Of a DNA stretch of 31,537 bases, positions 12,553 through 19,667 are shown one piece after another. The translations under genes were made by a program, and so were the position numbers. Source of the DNA: Actinomycetota bacterium (GTDB taxonomy: Bacteria > Actinomycetota > UBA4738 > CALAEC01); assembly GCA_036374295.1 (NCBI GenBank), contig DASUTZ010000048.1:1-31537 (forward strand), given 5' to 3'. Each line of letters begins with the position of its first letter. Position 1 is the first letter of the stretch. Under the pieces are notes generated by a model, which saw only the letters and a program-made list of their open reading frames with translations, was not told the DNA's origin and made no database searches.

Positions 12553-13176
12553 TCAGCCGAAGGTGAGCACGAGGGCGGGGCCGTCGGGGCCCGACTCCCG
12601 GCTGTCGTAGGCCTGCTCGAAGCCCTGCCCGCCCGAGCCCTCGACCTGGTCCCTCAGCATGAAGCCGTGGTTCCCCGAGGCGTACATCTCGAGGACCTGC
12701 TGGAGCACCGGCCACTCCCGCCAGCCCGTTCCCGAGGGGCTCGAGGCGGGCGACCCCGAGGTGGCCGGCTGGTTCGCCCAGGTCACGCCGCCCTCGGTCC
12801 AGCTCGAGGCCGCGCGGTACGCGAGGATCGTCCGGGCGCCGGTCGAGGACGTGGCGTGCAGCCGCAGCCTGGCGTCGGTCAGGGCGCACCCCGCCGGCAC
12901 CGGAGGCAGATCGAAGGCCACGAACGTCCGCCGGTCCTGAGCCCGGGAGACGACGGAGAGCTCGGCCTCCCCACCGTGGTTGGTGCCGGAGGGATTCGTG
13001 ACGACCCAGGCGTCGCCGATGGCGGCGAGCGTCTGGGCCCCGCAGAAGGAAGGGGCGGCTTGGAAGGTGTTGGCGGGGTTCTCCGTGACCGTGGAGAACG
13101 CGGCGGTCGTCGAGCCGAGGAGCGCCGCGACCAGGATCCCGACCCCCGCGGCCAGCAGACGCGACGCTCCGCGCAC
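12553..13176 (-). CDS. Secreted protein with SipW-class signal and DNRLRE (CBM96-like) domain
   Basis: TTAAFSTVTENPANTFQA after the hydrophobic leader. Domain motifs: DAWV, N(H)G, RRTFVAFDL, ARLRL, WTEGGVTWANQP, NHGFMLR, SRE...PALVLTF. Confidence 0.8.
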   Translation of the reverse strand: MRGASRLLAAGVGILVAALLGSTTAAFSTVTENPANTFQAAPSFCGAQTLAAIGDAWVVTNPSGTNHGGEAELSVVSRAQDRRTFVAFDLPPVPAGCALTDARLRLHATSSTGARTILAYRAASSWTEGGVTWANQPATSGSPASSPSGTGWREWPVLQQVLEMYASGNHGFMLRDQVEGSGGQGFEQAYDSRESGPDGPALVLTFG

Positions 13177-13188
13177 GGCCCCTCACCC

Positions 13189-13698
13189 TCACCAGACGCG
13201 TCGGAGGAGCGCCCCACCGACCAGGATCGAGCCCCCGACGAGGAGCACGACCCGCACGGTCGCGGAGCCCAGCCAGTGGAGGGGGTATCCGACCATCGGG
13301 ATCGCGGACCGAACCACCCCGATCGTGCCCTCCGCTCCGACCGACCAGCGTTCCTGGCCGGTGTTGGCGTCGCCCCTGGTGACGAAGTCGTAGCGGCCGT
13401 GCCGCCGCTCGACGCTCACCACCCGGTGCGTGACCAGGCTGCCCTCCCTCGTGGCGTCGCGGAACGTGACGACGTCTCCGGGGGCGACCTCGCCCGGCCT
13501 CACGGTCTTGACCACGACCACGTCCCCGGTCCCGATCGCCGGCTCCATGCTCCCGCTCCGCACAACCAGGAATCGGAACCCGGCCACCATCATCGTCACC
13601 ATCACGAAGAGGAGAATCGTGAGCGTCCCCAGGACGACGAGCGAGACCCCGGGGATCCGGGGCCTCGCGCTCGCCCGAGCCTGGAGCGTGGCGTCCAT
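13189..13698 (-). CDS. sipW: Signal peptidase I, SipW (ER/archaeal type)
   Basis: VRSGSMEP (catalytic Ser), GDVVTF, VTHRVV (catalytic His) and TRGDAN; N- and C-terminal TM helices. Shares base 13698 with the upstream stop codon. Confidence 0.9.
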   Translation of the reverse strand: MDATLQARASARPRIPGVSLVVLGTLTILLFVMVTMMVAGFRFLVVRSGSMEPAIGTGDVVVVKTVRPGEVAPGDVVTFRDATREGSLVTHRVVSVERRHGRYDFVTRGDANTGQERWSVGAEGTIGVVRSAIPMVGYPLHWLGSATVRVVLLVGGSILVGGALLRRVW

Positions 13699-14440: not shown

Positions 14441-15178
14441 CTAGGGCTGTGACCCGACGGAAACGCCTCGTCCGGAATCGGCCGAGTCGAGGGCGGCCCG
14501 GAGGGCCGCGACGAGGTCGCGCAGGCCCTCCGGGCCGCCCTCCTCCACCGCCTCGACCGCCCGGCTGCCCACGACCACGCCGTCGGCGAGCCGCGCGGCG
14601 GCCGCGGCGTGTGCGGGGGAAGCGATCCCGAACCCGGCCAGGAGCGGGAGCGCCGTCACCGCCCTGGCCCGCCTGATCAGGTCGGGGAGGAGGGGCGGCG
14701 CCTCCCCCCGGGGCCCGGTGGTGCCCGCCACGCTCACCAGGTACAGCCAGCCGTCGGTGCGTCCGGACGCGAGGCGGATCCGCGTCGTCGGCGTCGTCGG
14801 CGCCACGAGGTGCACCCGCCTGAGCTCGGGCATGGCGTCGGAGGGCAGGTCGGCCACGATGAGGCTCGACGCACCCGCCTCGAGGGCTTCCGCCGCGAAT
14901 CGGTCCCAGCCGTAGGCCTCGAGCACCGCCGAGTACGTCATCGGGACCAGCGGGACCTCCACCCGCCGCCGGGCCCGGGACAACGCCTCCAGGCACGCAG
15001 CCGGGCCCATCCCCTCGGCCAGCGCGCGCTCCCCTGCCCGGCGGATCACCGGACCGTCGGCGAGTGGGTCCGAGTGGGGGAAGCCGACCTCGACGAGGTC
15101 TGCCCCCGCCTCCACCGCGGCCTCGACCAGGCCCGGGAGGCCCCGCGACGCCATCAGGTAGATCGCGAGCGTGCTCAT
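14441..15178 (-). CDS. trpA: Tryptophan synthase alpha subunit
   Basis: [39 protein letters not shown] and DGVVVGS motifs. Confidence 0.95.
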
Positions 15179-16287
15179 CCCAGCACCGTTCCCAGCTCCT
15201 TGTCCCCGCGGCCGGAGAGGCCGACGACGACGAGCTGGGCATCCAGCTCCAGCGCCCGGGCGATCGCGTGCGCGGGCTCCAGCGCGGGGATGATGCCCTC
15301 GGCCCGCGACAGGAGCCGGAACGCCTCCAGAGCTTCCTCGTCCGAGGCCGTCACGTACTCGACCCGGCCCGACTCGCGCAGCCGGGCGTGCTCGGGCCCC
15401 ACTCCCGGATAGTCGAGGCCCGCGGAGATCGAACGCGCATCGTGGATCTGCCCATCCTCGTCGGCGAGCGCGTAGGAGCGCGCGCCGTGCAGCACGGCGG
15501 GCCTGCCCCGGGTGAGGCTCGCCGCCCCCTCGGCCTCGACGCCGATCAGGCGCACGCCGGGATCGTCCACGAAGGCCCGGAAGAGGCCGATGGCGTTCGA
15601 CCCTCCCCCCACGCAGGCCACGACCACATCGGGGAGGCGGCCCTCCGCGGCCAGGATCTGCTCCCTCGCCTCCCTGCCGATCACCTCCTGGAGCGTGGCC
15701 ACGAGGTCAGGGTAGGGCTCGGGCCCGACGCAGGAGCCGAGGAGGTAGTGCGTGTCGTCCACGTGCTCGATCCAATCCCTGATCGCCTCCGAGACGGCCT
15801 CGCGGAGCGTCCGGGTCCCGAACGAGACGAGCCGCACCTCCGCGCCGAGGAGCCGCATCCGCTCCACGTTGGGGTGCTGACGGCGCGCGTCCTCCTGGCC
15901 CATGTAGACGACGCAGTCCAGGCCGAGAAGGGCGCACACGGCAGCGGCCGCCACGCCGTGCTGGCCCGCGCCCGTCTCGGCCACGACGCGCCGCTTCCCC
16001 AACCGCCGGGCGAGGAGGCCCTGCCCCAGCGCGTTGTTCAGCTTGTGCGCCCCCGTGTGTAGGAGGTCCTCCCGCTTCAGGTAGAGGCGCCGCTCCGGGG
16101 CGAGACGCTCGGCCGGGAACAGGGGCGTGGGTCGACCCCCGTACGTTCGTCCCAGCCGGTCCAGCTCCTGCCGGAACCCGGGGTCGGCCCTCGCCTCCTC
16201 CCAGGCCTCCGCCAGCTCGTCCAACGCGGGGATCAGCGTCTCGGGGACGAAGCGACCGCCGAACCCCCGACCGATCCCGACGCGCAT
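15175..16287 (-). CDS. trpB: Tryptophan synthase beta subunit
   Basis: [26 protein letters not shown] (PLP Lys), [28 protein letters not shown] and LSGRGDK motifs. Confidence 0.96.
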
Positions 16288-17447
16288 CACGACGCCGCCT
16301 CCCGAGCCCTGGCCACGAACGCGCGGATCGTCCCGGGATCCTTGATCCCCGGCGCGGACTCGAGGCCGCGACTGGCGTCGACGGCCCAGGGCCGTACCAT
16401 GCGGACGGCCGCGGCCACGTTCCCGGGTGTCAGCCCTCCCGCCAGCATCACGCGACCCGGCACGCGGGCCGCGCGACCGAGGTGGGCCGGGTCGTCGCCT
16501 GTCCAGGGCAGGTCCGGGACTCGGGCGACGACCCGGCCACGTCGCAGGAGGAGGCCGTCGCGGCCCCGGTGGCCCTCCTCGGACGCATAGGCCTGCACGA
16601 GATCCGTGCCGATGGGGCGCGTGGCTCCCACGACGACGCCCACCGAGAGCATCTCGTCGGGGACATCGAGCGGCCGCCCCACCCTGCGCGGGCTCTCGGC
16701 CAGGACGAACCCAGCCATGTCCGCGCCGGCCTCGGCCGCGGCGGCCACGTCCTCGTCCCGGGTGAGCCCGCACACCTTGACGAGGGGGCGGGCGATGAGC
16801 TCACGCAGCTTGGCCGCGGGGTCGGGAGCGCGCATCAGGGCCGTGCCCACCAGGATCGCGTCGGCGCCCGCCAGCTCGGCCTCGGCGCCCTGCGCGCGGC
16901 TCGTGACGCCAGACTCGGCCACCACGACGCCTCCGCGCGCCCGCACGACGAGGCCGAGCTGGCGGGCGCGGTCCACGCGGAAGGTGGAGAGGTCCCGGGC
17001 GTTGACCCCGATCGGGTCGGCCCCGAGCCCGGCCGCCCGCCCCAGCTCGTCCCCATCGTGCGCCTCCACGAGCGTTTCCAGCCCCATCTCCTCGGCCCGG
17101 GCCATCAGCCGGCGCGTCGCCCGATCGTCCAGATCGCGCAGCAGGAGGAGGGCGGCGTCGGCGCCCGCCCGGCGCACCGCCTCCAACTCCTCCTCGGTGC
17201 GGAAGAACCCCTTGGCCAGGATGGGCAGGTCCGTGGCGGCTCGGGCGGCGCGGAGGTCCCCAAGGGATCCTGCGAAGCGTTCGTCCACGAGGACGGACAG
17301 CGCCACCGCCCCCGCGCGCTCGAAGGCGCGGGCGAGCCGGGGGACGTCCGCGTCCGGCCGCAGATCGCCGGCCGAGGGGGAGCGCCGCTTGATCTCGGCG
17401 ATCGCGGAGAGGCCCGGGGTCGAGAGCGCGTGGCGGAACCGCCTCAC
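16287..17447 (-). CDS. trpCF: Bifunctional indole-3-glycerol-phosphate synthase / phosphoribosylanthranilate isomerase (TrpC-TrpF fusion), 386 aa
   Basis: N half: [40 protein letters not shown] half: [30 protein letters not shown] overlap with trpD. Confidence 0.92.
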
Positions 17448-18472
17448 GCCACGGCCTCCTCGGCGCGGCTGAACGCCACCAGCGTCTCGAGCTTCTCGGC
17501 GGCCGCGCCGCCGTCCACGACCTCGGCCGCCGCGGCCAGGCCCTCCCGGAGGTCCGAGACGAGCCCGGCGATCCGCAGCGCGGCCGCCGCGTTCAGCAGC
17601 ACCGCGTCCCGCTTCGGCCCAGCCGCCCCATCGAACACCTCCCGAATCGCCGCGGCGTTCTCCTCCGGCGTCCCGCCCCGGAGGTCGTCGGGAGCGCATC
17701 CGTCGATCCCGAGATCGGCCGGGTCCACGATCGTCTCCTCCACACGACCCTCCTCGACCTCGAACACGAGGTTGGGCCCCGCGGGCGAGAGCTCGTCGAT
17801 CCCGCCCGCCCCGTGCACCACGAGGGCGCGGTCCGCGCCGAGCAGGGCCAGGACCCTAGCTACGGTCCCGGCCAGCTCCCGCGCGTACACGCCCACGAGC
17901 TGGGCCCGGGCCCCGGCCGGGTTCGTCAGCGGCCCGAGCACGTTGAAGACGGTGCGCGCGGCCAGCTCCCGGCGGACCGGACCCGCGTGCCGCATCGCGG
18001 GGTGATGCGCCGGCGCGAAGAGGAACCCGAACCCATGCTCGTCGATCGACTCGGCGATCCGCTCGGGCGAGAGGTCGAGGGAGAACCCCAGCGCCTCCAG
18101 GACGTCTGCCGAGCCCGAGGCCGACGACACGGCGCGGTTCCCGTGCTTGGCCACCCCGGCTCCGGCACCGGCGGCGACGAGCCCGGCCGCCGTCGAGAGG
18201 TTGAGCGTGCCGGCCCCGTCGCCGCCGGTGCCGGCGGTGTCGATGAGATCCCGACGGCGGGGAGCGACGGGGAGCACGTGCTCACGCATCGCCTCGGCGC
18301 ACCCGGCGATCTCGTCCGGGGACTCCCCCTTCATCCGGAGGCCCACCAGGAACCCCCCGATCTGAGCGGGAGTCGCCTCCCCCCGCATGATCTCGCCCGT
18401 CACGGCCCGCGCCTCCTCGCGGGACAGGTCCGAGCCCTCCAGCAGGCGTGCGAGCGCGTCCGTGATCGACAT
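17444..18472 (-). CDS. trpD: Anthranilate phosphoribosyltransferase
   Basis: DTAGTGGDG, NLST, AKHGNRAVSSASGSAD, HHPAM, RTVFNVLGPLTNP and VHGAGGIDE motifs. GGAGGTGA SD before the ATG at 18472. Confidence 0.96.
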   Translation of the reverse strand: MSITDALARLLEGSDLSREEARAVTGEIMRGEATPAQIGGFLVGLRMKGESPDEIAGCAEAMREHVLPVAPRRRDLIDTAGTGGDGAGTLNLSTAAGLVAAGAGAGVAKHGNRAVSSASGSADVLEALGFSLDLSPERIAESIDEHGFGFLFAPAHHPAMRHAGPVRRELAARTVFNVLGPLTNPAGARAQLVGVYARELAGTVARVLALLGADRALVVHGAGGIDELSPAGPNLVFEVEEGRVEETIVDPADLGIDGCAPDDLRGGTPEENAAAIREVFDGAAGPKRDAVLLNAAAALRIAGLVSDLREGLAAAAEVVDGGAAAEKLETLVAFSRAEEAVA

Positions 18473-18477
18473 CTGCC

Positions 18478-18762
18478 TCACCTCCACTCCAGGAAGTTGC
18501 GTACAAGGGATGGCCCGAGCGGCGTCAGCACCGATTCGGGGTGGAACTGCACGCCCTCCACCGGCAGTGACCGGTGTCGAACGCCCATGACCTCGCCGTC
18601 CTCCGCCCGGGCGACCTCCAGCGCGTCGGGCAGGCGGCGGGCGGCGAGCGAGTGATTGCGGCCGGCGACGAAGCCGTGGGGCGCGCCTCGGAACACGCCG
18701 CGCCCGTGGTGGCGGATCGAGCGGGTGTGGAGATCGATGTCGGTGTCGGTGATCGCGGCCAA
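18478..18762 (-). pseudogene. trpG: Truncated anthranilate synthase component II (C-terminal half of TrpG/PabA only, 94 aa)
   Basis: TTG start after GGAGGAG. Contains IRHHGRGVF, GRNHSL, VMGVRH and GVQFHPESVLT..G..LVRNF. Lacks the N-terminal DNYDSF, SPGPG and GVCLG (nucleophile Cys) motifs, and there is no room for them upstream. Confidence 0.8.
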
Positions 18763-18773
18763 GCTCCTCCGGG

Positions 18774-18803
18774 AACGAGAAAGGACCCCCGATCGGAGGT
18801 CCT
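18774..18803 (-). terminator. Attenuator terminator hairpin of the trp leader
   Basis: RNA AGGACCUCC-GAUC-GGGGGUCCU (9 bp, one G-U pair), followed by UUCUCGUU. Confidence 0.8.
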
Positions 18804-18829
18804 CGAGTGGTGCGGCTGCTACGGCGTGA

Positions 18830-18901
18830 TCAGGCCATGAGCGGTCCCGCCCCACCCGAGGGGCGCCAGGCCCAGCGCCAGGTGCGAACGGGACTCGTCA
18901 T
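18830..18901 (-). CDS. trpL: trp operon leader peptide MTSPVRTWRWAWRPSGGAGPLMA (23 aa)
   Basis: ATG at 18901, TGG codons at positions 8, 10 and 12, TGA at 18830-18832. Lies directly upstream of the terminator and the trp genes. Confidence 0.88.
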   Translation of the reverse strand: MTSPVRTWRWAWRPSGGAGPLMA

Positions 18902-18914
18902 CGTGAGCGGAACC

Positions 18915-19667
18915 TTACGCGGGCCGGGCGGCGCTCGTCAAACCGAGCACGCCGGAGGGCAGCGTCCGGCCGGGCGGGTACGAGGTCCATGCGTCCTGGA
19001 ATCGGACGTGGACCGACCCCTCGCCCGTCACGCGCCACGTCCGACCGTCCCCGATCAAGGCGGTCCGCTCGTCCACCCCGACCAGGACGAGGCCCGGACC
19101 GACCATCCGCTCCACCGCCGTCCGGAATCCGGGGACGTGCGCGTCCACGGTGTCCCAGTGTGGCGCGAGCACGACGCCCCCGAACGCGCTCAGCCCCGGC
19201 CTCCAGGGATCGCCTCCCGGCGGATCGGCGATCGAGGAGTCGGGCGCCAGCTCCCCGAGGAAGGCCACGCCCGCGCTGCAGCCGCCGAACGCGAGCCCCT
19301 CCCCAAGCCGCTGGAGGAGTCGATCCCAGAAGAAAGTCCCGGCGAGCGTCGCGGCGAGATCGGCAGGATTGCCGCCCGAGAAGAACACCATCGAGGCCTC
19401 GTCGAGCCGCGACGCGAGCCGGGGGTCGGCGGCGTCGTCCCGCGTCTTCAGGGGCAGCACCTCGGCCGCGTACCCGAGGCGCTCGTAGTGCGCGACGCCC
19501 CGGCGGCCCCAGCGTGAGAAGACCTCCTCCCCCTCCGCGGCGCTGGCGGCGGGCGCCACGAGGACCCGGCCGTCCGATGCACCGTCCAGCAGCCAGCGGT
19601 CGACCTCCTCGGCCCAGGGCTCGAACTCCCCCGACCCGAGGAGACCGAGACGGCGGGCGCCGCTCAC
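18915..19667 (-). CDS. Peptidase S51 / cyanophycinase-like (class I glutamine amidotransferase-like fold) protein
   Basis: LGLLGSGEF, PAASA, VFFSGGNP, GCSAG (nucleophile Ser elbow), LAPHWD and GVDERTAL motifs. Confidence 0.82.
   Translation of the reverse strand: MSGARRLGLLGSGEFEPWAEEVDRWLLDGASDGRVLVAPAASAAEGEEVFSRWGRRGVAHYERLGYAAEVLPLKTRDDAADPRLASRLDEASMVFFSGGNPADLAATLAGTFFWDRLLQRLGEGLAFGGCSAGVAFLGELAPDSSIADPPGGDPWRPGLSAFGGVVLAPHWDTVDAHVPGFRTAVERMVGPGLVLVGVDERTALIGDGRTWRVTGEGSVHVRFQDAWTSYPPGRTLPSGVLGLTSAARPA

What the first reader, a model, noticed from the sequence alone, without database searches (positions are those of the whole stretch)
18774..18917. Complete, unannotated trp attenuator with an alternating W-R-W-A-W leader peptide
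Seen: the 23-aa leader is absent from the ORF track and has Trp at codons 8, 10 and 12. A protector hairpin CGCCCC-UCGGGU-GGGGCG spans 18848-18865. The antiterminator CCUCGGGUGGGGCGG (18847-18861) pairs with CCGCACCACUCGAGG (18801-18815) at 13 Watson-Crick positions plus one G-U, invading the terminator 5' arm. A 9-bp terminator with a U-rich tail follows. The leader has no SD, and its candidate -10 TAAGGT overlaps the stop codon of the upstream S51 gene. Established: classical ribosome-stalling attenuation, whose leaders usually have tandem Trp codons. The interrupted codons and near-leaderless start make this a variant.
Basis: partly seen in the sequence, partly recalled or inferred. Interest (0 to 1): 0.75.

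Follow-up and report, generated by a model that had tools for sequence, protein, structure and literature searches.

The report
Leaderless Trp attenuator, orphaned from trpE
This is a real tryptophan-sensing leader-peptide attenuator of a kind already known in other bacteria, here in an uncultured soil actinobacterium (Gaiellales), where it now sits in front of a trp operon that has lost its first enzyme.

Summary

Comparison with relatives shows the element is real.
- Sixty-six Gaiellales loci carry the same leader upstream of trpE, or upstream of trpD where trpE is missing.
- They share a TTGAC(G)/TAnnnT promoter ending 7-10 nt before the ATG, so the leader mRNA is leaderless or nearly so.
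- The 2:3 helix covaries strongly.
- W-x-W-R is the conserved core of the family. The W-R-W-A-W pattern here is a WWWAW leader with one Trp changed to Arg.

The weak step is the link between antiterminator and terminator. They share only 3 nt here and none in 54 of 66 relatives. An experimentally studied precedent is the leaderless three-hairpin ilvBNC attenuator of Corynebacterium glutamicum, where the two helices share one trinucleotide.

In this genome a 1.49-kb deletion removed trpE and half of trpG. Contigs from two independent soil metagenome studies cross the joint. The attenuator now controls a remnant ORF plus trpD-CF-B-A.

Verdict: new member of a known kind, with moderate interest. 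The scan has not noted this element on other DNA.

The parts
18936..18941 (-). -35 hexamer TTGACG
   Evidence: Read. TTGAC(G) lies 17-18 nt upstream of the -10 hexamer in most of 64 related loci; TTGACG itself occurs in 35.
18912..18917 (-). -10 hexamer TAAGGT, overlapping the TAA stop of the S51 peptidase gene
   Evidence: Read. A TAnnnT hexamer ends 7-8 nt before the leader ATG in 46 of 64 loci, and 10 nt before it in this genus. No transcription start data are available.
18830..18901 (-). Leader ORF of 23 codons plus stop, MTSPVRTWRWAWRPSGGAGPLMA, with Trp codons at 18880-78, 18874-72 and 18868-66
   Evidence: The peptide is identical in G001, and orthologous leaders occur in 66 loci.
18880..18901 (-). 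Segment 1 (5' coding part, codons 1-7 and the first Trp codon), which pairs with segment 2 as the anti-antiterminator
   Evidence: RNAfold minimum-energy structure of the ATG-start RNA. The duplex is -22.1 kcal/mol here. The family mean is -20 with z = -2.05. Compensatory changes are seen, and 0 of 200 partner permutations reach the observed energy.
18837..18861 (-). Segment 2, which pairs either with segment 1 or, through 18861-18847, with segment 3
18801..18815 (-). Segment 3, the 3' arm of the 2:3 (antiterminator) helix
   Evidence: The helix is 90.6% paired across 66 sequences, 8 of 14 pairs change on both sides, and 0 of 500 shuffles reach this. RNAalifold predicts the same helix.
18773..18803 (-). 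Intrinsic terminator: AGGACCUCC (18803-18795), loop GAUC, GGGGGUCCU (18790-18782), tail UUUCUCGUU (18781-18773). AGG at 18803-18801 is shared with segment 3.
   Evidence: A terminator with compensatory arm changes is present in all 66 loci, and 0 of 200 permutations reach the observed energy. The simple scan does not call it because the U-tract is interrupted.
18478..18770 (-). SD GGAGGA (18770-18765), TTG start (18762) and a 94-aa remnant ORF: the first ~12-15 codons of trpE joined in frame to the C-terminal half of trpG, overlapping the trpD start
   Evidence: The Pfam GATase match covers profile positions 104-187 of 190 only. Independent contigs bridge the joint.
14441..18487 (-). Downstream operon: trpD (18487-17444), trpC-F fusion (17447-16287), trpB (16287-15175), trpA (15178-14441)
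   Evidence: Pfam matches.

Best explanation
This is a ribosome-mediated transcription attenuator that senses charged tRNA-Trp. It belongs to a family conserved in one Gaiellales lineage.

Transcription starts 0-4 nt before the leader ATG, so the leader mRNA is leaderless or nearly so.

If the leader is untranslated, or is translated quickly, its 5' coding part (segment 1) pairs with segment 2. Segment 3 then stays free, the terminator hairpin forms, and transcription stops near 18773-18781.

When Trp is scarce, a ribosome stalls at the UGG codons. It covers segment 1 and leaves segment 2 free. Segment 2 pairs with segment 3. That helix ends exactly at the foot of the terminator and takes its lowest 3 nt (AGG). 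This weakens termination and lets RNA polymerase read into the operon.

Shown here: the ORF, the promoter spacing, the three helices and their conservation or covariation.

Inferred: leaderless initiation, stalling, and above all that the 2:3 helix actually lowers termination.

In this genome the controlled genes are a trpE'-'trpG remnant ORF plus trpD, trpCF, trpB and trpA, because trpE and the 5' half of trpG were deleted.
For: - Leader ORF and helices are at the stated coordinates.
- The genes downstream are trp genes.
- In the sister genome G001 the identical leader precedes an intact trpE-trpG-trpD.
- Sixty-six loci carry Trp-rich leaders 1.8-1.9 kb upstream of trpD, or directly before trpD.
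- The last two UGG codons and the following CGC are nearly invariant.
- The distance from the last UGG to segment 2 is fixed at 5 nt in most loci.
- Promoter hexamers lie at a fixed distance from the ATG.
- The 2:3 helix covaries.
- The 1:2 pairing is supported.
- The terminator is conserved, with compensatory arm changes.
- G000 and G001 differ at only 2 of 128 leader positions, both outside the helices, while the 398-nt block that contains the leader is 91.5% identical.
- A mutationally tested precedent exists: a leaderless three-hairpin attenuator whose antiterminator and terminator share one trinucleotide (PMC11857589).
Against: - There are no expression, 3'-end or Trp-response data.
- Antiterminator and terminator share only 3 nt here. 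RNAfold with ribosome masks keeps an 8-bp terminator next to the antiterminator.
- In 54 of 66 relatives the two helices do not overlap at all; the gap is 1-9 nt.
- A ribosome at the leader stop codon would not cover segment 2 in this genome, because the stop lies 13 nt past it.
- The U-tract is interrupted, and the consensus scan misses both promoter and terminator.
- The fold energy is not better than shuffles.
- The -10 hexamer lies 10 nt from the ATG here, so strict leaderless initiation is uncertain.
Confidence: 0.75

Rival explanations
1. The attenuator is a relic. After trpE and trpG were lost, it was left behind and no longer regulates anything useful. It persists only because the deletion is recent.
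For: The deletion postdates the split from G001, whose TrpD is 97% identical. The U-tract here is weak.
Against: The leader RNA has 2 differences in 128 nt from G001, both outside the helices. Three other genomes with no trpE found (G002, G010, G019; three genera in all when G000 is counted) keep an intact leader, 2:3 helix and terminator directly before trpD or a remnant ORF. That argues for continued selection.
Confidence: 0.07
2. The conserved 2:3 helix is not an antiterminator by competition. Control works another way. One option is steric blocking of the terminator foot by the adjacent helix with the stalled ribosome at its end. Another is control of translation of the first gene by the terminator hairpin. 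A third is an unknown factor.
For: There is no overlap in 54 of 66 relatives, and both helices coexist in all masked folds of the main clade. In the main clade trpE starts 9-14 nt after the U-tract without a Shine-Dalgarno sequence. No conserved alternative partner for the terminator 5' arm was found.
Against: In this genome and its near relatives the helix does take 1-5 nt of the terminator's G-C core. A 3-nt overlap is enough in C. glutamicum ilvBNC (PMC11857589). The B. subtilis trp leader also has a 3-nt overlap, although there TRAP contributes (PMC3064811).
Confidence: 0.13
3. The terminated leader RNA or the leader peptide acts in trans, as rnTrpL and peTrpL do in Sinorhizobium. That function is why the element is kept when trpE is lost.
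For: There is precedent in PMC6614838 and PMC7298713. The element is retained in four genomes in which no trpE was found.
Against: No target was sought or found. The covariance model finds only one copy in the genome. Retention is explained more simply by continued control of trpD-A. The peptide sequence after the Trp codons follows the RNA helices rather than showing protein-level constraint.
Confidence: 0.05

Closest known systems
Corynebacterium glutamicum ilvBNC leaderless three-hairpin ('fast') attenuator (Ryabchenko et al. 2025, PMC11857589)
   Same: Both are actinobacterial. The leader-peptide mRNA is leaderless. There are three helices: anti-antiterminator, antiterminator and terminator. 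Antiterminator and terminator stand side by side and share one trinucleotide (AGG here, GCC there). The first helix starts at the 5' end of the leader ORF, where it could also block leaderless initiation.
   Different: It senses branched-chain amino acids, not Trp. There is no sequence relationship. The function here is untested. In most relatives of this locus even the trinucleotide overlap is missing.
Classical trp attenuators: E. coli trpL, and the Corynebacterium and Streptomyces trp leaders (Seliverstov et al. 2005, PMC1262725)
   Same: A short ORF with UGG regulatory codons lies upstream of trpE, followed by a G+C-rich terminator with a U-tract and alternative 1:2, 2:3 and 3:4-type helices.
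   Different: Those leaders have two or three tandem UGG codons and, in E. coli, a Shine-Dalgarno-led leader ORF. Enteric attenuators share 6-11 nt between antiterminator and terminator (PMC3064811). Here the conserved core is UGG-NNN-UGG-CGC, the start is (near-)leaderless and the overlap is 0-5 nt. Rfam Trp_leader does not match.
Mycobacterial polycysteine leaderless short-ORF attenuators (bioRxiv 10.1101/834739)
   Same: A leaderless short ORF enriched in codons for the pathway's end product sits as the first cistron of a biosynthetic operon in an actinobacterium.
   Different: Those act on translation by sequestering the Shine-Dalgarno sequence, without an intrinsic terminator. Here a canonical hairpin with a U-tract is conserved.
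Bacillus subtilis trp leader (TRAP-controlled; PMC3064811)
   Same: Antiterminator and terminator share only 3 nt, and the U-tract is interrupted and weak.
   Different: The sensor is the TRAP protein binding (G/U)AG repeats, not a translating ribosome. No such repeats and no leader-independent design occur here.

Membership tests
Leader-peptide (ribosome-mediated) transcription attenuator of an amino-acid operon | A short ORF rich in codons for the pathway's amino acid, upstream of the biosynthetic genes | tested here: met
   The 23-codon ORF has 3 UGG codons within 5 codons and lies upstream of trp genes. Orthologous leaders lie upstream of trpE in relatives.
Leader-peptide (ribosome-mediated) transcription attenuator of an amino-acid operon | An intrinsic terminator between the leader ORF and the first structural gene | tested here: met
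   A 9-bp G+C-rich hairpin is followed by UUUCUCGUU. It is conserved with compensatory arm changes in all 66 loci. Caveat: the simple scan misses it.
Leader-peptide (ribosome-mediated) transcription attenuator of an amino-acid operon | An antiterminator helix mutually exclusive with the terminator | tested here: inconclusive
   The 2:3 helix is real. It shares only 3 nt with the terminator here and none in 54 of 66 relatives. Both helices coexist in masked folds.
Leader-peptide (ribosome-mediated) transcription attenuator of an amino-acid operon | An anti-antiterminator (1:2) that a ribosome stalled at the regulatory codons would cover | tested here: met
   Codons 2-7 pair with segment 2 at -22 kcal/mol here. 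The family mean is -20 with z = -2.05, compensatory changes are seen, and 0 of 200 permutations reach the observed energy.
Leader-peptide (ribosome-mediated) transcription attenuator of an amino-acid operon | Read-through rises when the amino acid or its charged tRNA is scarce | not testable with these tools
   No RNA data are available. This needs reporters, in vitro transcription-translation or Term-seq.
Rfam Trp_leader (RF00513) or any other Rfam family | A match to the covariance model | tested here: not met
   There were no matches at gathering score in the window. There was no relevant match at E up to 10 in 18650-19000.
C. glutamicum ilvBNC-type leaderless three-hairpin attenuator | The leader ORF starts at or next to the transcript's 5' end | tested here: inconclusive
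   Conserved -35 and -10 hexamers end 7-8 nt before the ATG in 46 of 64 loci, but 10 nt before it in this genus. There is no Shine-Dalgarno sequence and no transcription start data.
C. glutamicum ilvBNC-type leaderless three-hairpin attenuator | Antiterminator and terminator are adjacent and compete for one boundary trinucleotide | tested here: met
   AGG at 18803-18801 can pair with CCU (18861-18859) or with CCU (18784-18782).
Mycobacterial leaderless short-ORF translational attenuators | The regulatory-codon tract pairs with the Shine-Dalgarno sequence of the next gene, with no terminator | not tested
   Pairing of the Trp tract with GGAGGA (18770-18765) was not examined. A terminator is present, which already differs.

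The most novel reading that the evidence does not exclude
In this Gaiellales family the antiterminator does not work by stealing nucleotides from the terminator. The covarying 2:3 helix ends 0-3 nt from the terminator foot in most members. Its other strand emerges 2-8 nt from a ribosome stalled at the Trp codons. Read-through would then come from steric exclusion: a rigid helix, with the ribosome at its end, sits where the lowest terminator pairs must form in the RNA exit channel. That would be a non-competitive form of leader-peptide attenuation.
Probability: 0.15. Interest if true: 0.7.

Novelty: new member of a known kind. Interest (0 to 1): 0.4.

Why it matters
The finding extends leader-peptide Trp attenuation to Thermoleophilia (Gaiellales), an abundant and almost uncultured soil lineage, with an RNA family that is absent from Rfam.

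The family offers 66 or more natural variants of a compact, leaderless, three-helix attenuator. Antiterminator and terminator overlap by 0-5 nt across these variants. That makes it a useful natural series for asking how much overlap attenuation really needs.

The attenuator is also kept in at least four genomes in which no anthranilate synthase gene was found (MAGs, 73-94% complete). This suggests those organisms still tune trpD-A expression to Trp supply while depending on anthranilate from outside.

Tried and rejected
- Rfam at gathering score and at E up to 10 gave nothing relevant.
- The consensus promoter and terminator scan gave 0 sites.
- The single-sequence fold z-score was -0.75, which is uninformative in 72% G+C DNA.
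- A second genomic match to the Trp-codon stretch (contig C80) lies inside a peptide deformylase gene and is chance.
- I searched for a conserved partner that would sequester the terminator 5' arm. Segment 2 and its 3' flank are the commonest best partner, but barely beat the controls: z = -0.45 and -0.6, -12.13 against -11.80 kcal/mol on permutation (6 of 200), and z about 0 in this genome's clade. Rejected for this locus.
- Expression evidence: no RNA holder was listed among the sequencing runs. Stretches without contig cover carry no weight.
- Covariance-model search of 151 genomes of the order: 12 had a match, 8 of 13 in the window's own family. This says little about wider distribution because the sample was dominated by one other family.
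- Unpublished genomes G015, G017 and G018 appear only in the peptide list and as 3 of the 12 matches. They are not in alignment A1, and no conclusion rests on them.

Full report
**What is there.** On the minus strand an S51 peptidase gene (19667-18915; Pfam) ends in TAA. That stop codon is the start of TAAGGT (18917-18912), and TTGACG lies 18 nt upstream (18941-18936). Ten nt after TAAGGT, with no Shine-Dalgarno sequence, an ATG (18901) opens a 23-codon ORF, MTSPVRTWRWAWRPSGGAGPLMA, with a stop at 18832-18830. Downstream come CCGCACCACUCGAGG (18815-18801), the hairpin AGGACCUCC-GAUC-GGGGGUCCU (18803-18782) and UUUCUCGUU. Then follow GGAGGA, a TTG start (18762), and a 94-aa ORF that matches only positions 104-187 of the 190-position GATase profile. 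After it come trpD, a trpC-trpF fusion, trpB and trpA. The window is contig C48 of a 2.2-Mb, 86%-complete MAG with 72% G+C. Record titles of the nearest relatives place it in Gaiellales/Gaiellaceae, class Thermoleophilia.

**Is it more than chance?** Single-sequence tests say little. The fold is no better than shuffles (z = -0.75). The consensus scan finds neither promoter nor terminator. Rfam has no match.

The comparative evidence is strong. The sister genome G001 (TrpD 97% identical) has the identical leader peptide upstream of an intact trpE-trpG-trpD. Among 80 loci fetched with TrpD, plus loci from related genomes, 66 carry a Trp-rich short ORF. It lies 1.8-1.9 kb upstream of trpD, which is just before trpE, or directly before trpD. 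They align as A1.

**Promoter and start.** TTGAC(G), a 17-18-nt spacer and TAnnnT are conserved. The -10 hexamer ends 7-8 nt before the start codon in 46 of 64 loci and 10 nt before it in this genus. The leader mRNA is therefore inferred to be leaderless, or here to have a 5' UTR of about 2-4 nt. No transcription start data exist.

**The Trp codons.** Close relatives read TWWWAWRP. G000 and G001 read TWRWAWRP (codon 9 is CGC), and G010 reads AWRWAWRP (CGG). The larger clade reads TWGWAWR, TWAWSWR or TWWAWR, and about a dozen leaders have only W-x-W. In A1 the last two UGG codons and the following CGC are nearly invariant. The interrupted arrangement is thus the family's conserved core, not a peculiarity of this locus.

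**Helices.**
- 2:3 helix. 18861-18847 pairs with 18815-18801. Over 66 sequences the helix is 90.6% paired, and 8 of 14 pairs change on both sides. No shuffle in 500 reaches this, and slid controls give 38-47% pairing. RNAalifold finds the same helix on its own.
The 5' coding part (codons 2-7) pairs with segment 2. It dominates the minimum-energy fold of the ATG-start RNA. The duplex is -22.1 kcal/mol here and -20.0 on average, with z = -2.05 against shuffles. Clear compensatory changes occur, such as GUCCCG:CGGGAC here against CUCCCG:CGGGAG, UUCCCG:CGGGAA and CCAC:GUGG elsewhere. Partner permutation gives 0 of 200.
- Terminator. It is present in all 66 loci, with arm variants GACCUUCC/GGAGGGUC, GACCC/GGGUC, GGCUCC/GGAGCC and GGCCUC/GAGGCC (0 of 200).
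It is not supported: 73% paired against 74.8% in shuffles.

**How it most likely works.** The layout is the classical one. A ribosome stalled at UGG covers segment 1. Segment 2, which begins 4-7 nt after the last UGG (a fixed 5 nt in most relatives), is then free to pair with segment 3.

The unresolved step is how that lowers termination. Here the 2:3 helix and the terminator share only AGG (18803-18801). With ribosome masks RNAfold keeps both helices, and the terminator goes from 10 to 8 bp. The maximal 2:3 helix reaches the terminator's G-C core in 12 of 66 loci, nearly all in this genome's clade, and stops 1-9 nt short (median 2) in the other 54. No conserved alternative partner for the terminator's 5' arm was found.

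Two papers make a small overlap credible. The C. glutamicum ilvBNC attenuator is leaderless and has three hairpins. Its antiterminator and terminator are adjacent and compete for one trinucleotide, and mutations there raise expression seven- to eight-fold (PMC11857589). The B. subtilis trp leader shares 3 nt, whereas enteric leader-peptide attenuators share 6-11 (PMC3064811). I therefore rate 'Trp-sensing leader-peptide attenuator' at about 0.75, and leave the last mechanistic step open.

**Context the finding did not mention.** Against G001, G000 lacks 1,491 bp. Window 19100-18718 matches up to trpE codon ~15, and window 18721-18301 resumes in trpG, with CTCG microhomology at the joint. The result is an in-frame trpE'-'trpG ORF that lacks the catalytic Cys region and overlaps the trpD start. 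It probably survives as a translational coupling device; that is inference.

The joint is not an assembly artefact. Contigs from two other soil studies cross it without a mismatch: X2 record 5 (18558-18914) and X5 record 18 (18669-18819).

No chorismate-binding enzyme gene (PF00425) is found in G000, G002, G010 or G019, which are 73-94% complete. In G002 and G019 the attenuator sits directly before trpD. In G010 it precedes a different trpE'-'trpG fusion. Anthranilate synthase has thus been lost at least three times with the attenuator kept. This argues that the attenuator still works.

G000 and G001 differ at only 2 of 128 leader positions: one in the terminator loop and one in U-tract length.

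The scan holds no note of this element on other DNA.

**Known or new.** Classical trp attenuators are described for Corynebacterium and Streptomyces, with double or triple UGG repeats (PMC1262725). Leaderless attenuating short ORFs are described for mycobacterial cys genes, where they act on translation (10.1101/834739). The leaderless three-hairpin design is described for C. glutamicum ilvBNC. This locus combines known features in a new lineage and a new RNA family, so it is a new member of a known kind. The covariance model R1 finds one copy in this genome and matches in 8 of 13 sampled genomes of its family.

Unpublished genomes G015, G017 and G018 contribute only to the peptide list and to 3 of the 12 matches. 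No conclusion depends on them.

Noticed in passing
window 18718-18721 (joint); remnant ORF 18762-18478: A 1,491-bp deletion relative to the sister genome G001 removed trpE from about codon 15 and the 5' half of trpG, with CTCG microhomology at the joint. It leaves an in-frame remnant ORF that overlaps the trpD start. Contigs from two independent soil studies bridge the joint exactly.
   Followed up: yes
L005/L042 (G002), L006 (G010), L015 (G019): Three other relatives with no PF00425 match keep the attenuator directly before trpD (G002, G019) or before a different TrpE-N-terminus/TrpG-C-terminus fusion (G010). This indicates at least three independent losses of anthranilate synthase in the family, and so possible dependence on external anthranilate.
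   Followed up: partly
L009 / G031 contig C50: The leader lies directly upstream of trpD, while a trpE-like gene lies about 4 kb further down the same strand (12800-13558). The operon order is rearranged rather than trpE being lost.
   Followed up: no
Main-clade loci, e.g. L090:1648-1665: Stop codons in all three frames (UGACCUGACCUAG) follow the leader ORF within 13 nt, which is unusual in ~70% G+C DNA. They may catch ribosomes that shift frame at hungry Trp codons.
   Followed up: no
Main-clade loci, e.g. L090:1700-1715: The trpE start codon lies 9-14 nt after the terminator U-tract with no Shine-Dalgarno sequence. In read-through transcripts the terminator hairpin could also gate trpE translation.
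   Followed up: no
window 17447-16287: A trpC-trpF fusion of 386 aa. The PRAI profile matches only its last ~48 positions (residues 331-379), so the TrpF part is divergent or trimmed.
   Followed up: partly
L041:1724-2950 (G001): TrpE in this lineage is short (408 aa) and starts with TTG after GGAGG. trpE and trpG overlap by 4 nt (ATGA).
   Followed up: no
window 18877-18875 (codon 9): Trp-to-Arg at leader codon 9 occurs as CGC in G000 and G001 and as CGG in the more distant G010, while the closer G002 keeps TGG. This is probably two independent changes at the least constrained Trp position. In G000 the CGC also creates a small GGCGCU/GGCGCC hairpin within the Trp-codon stretch.
   Followed up: no
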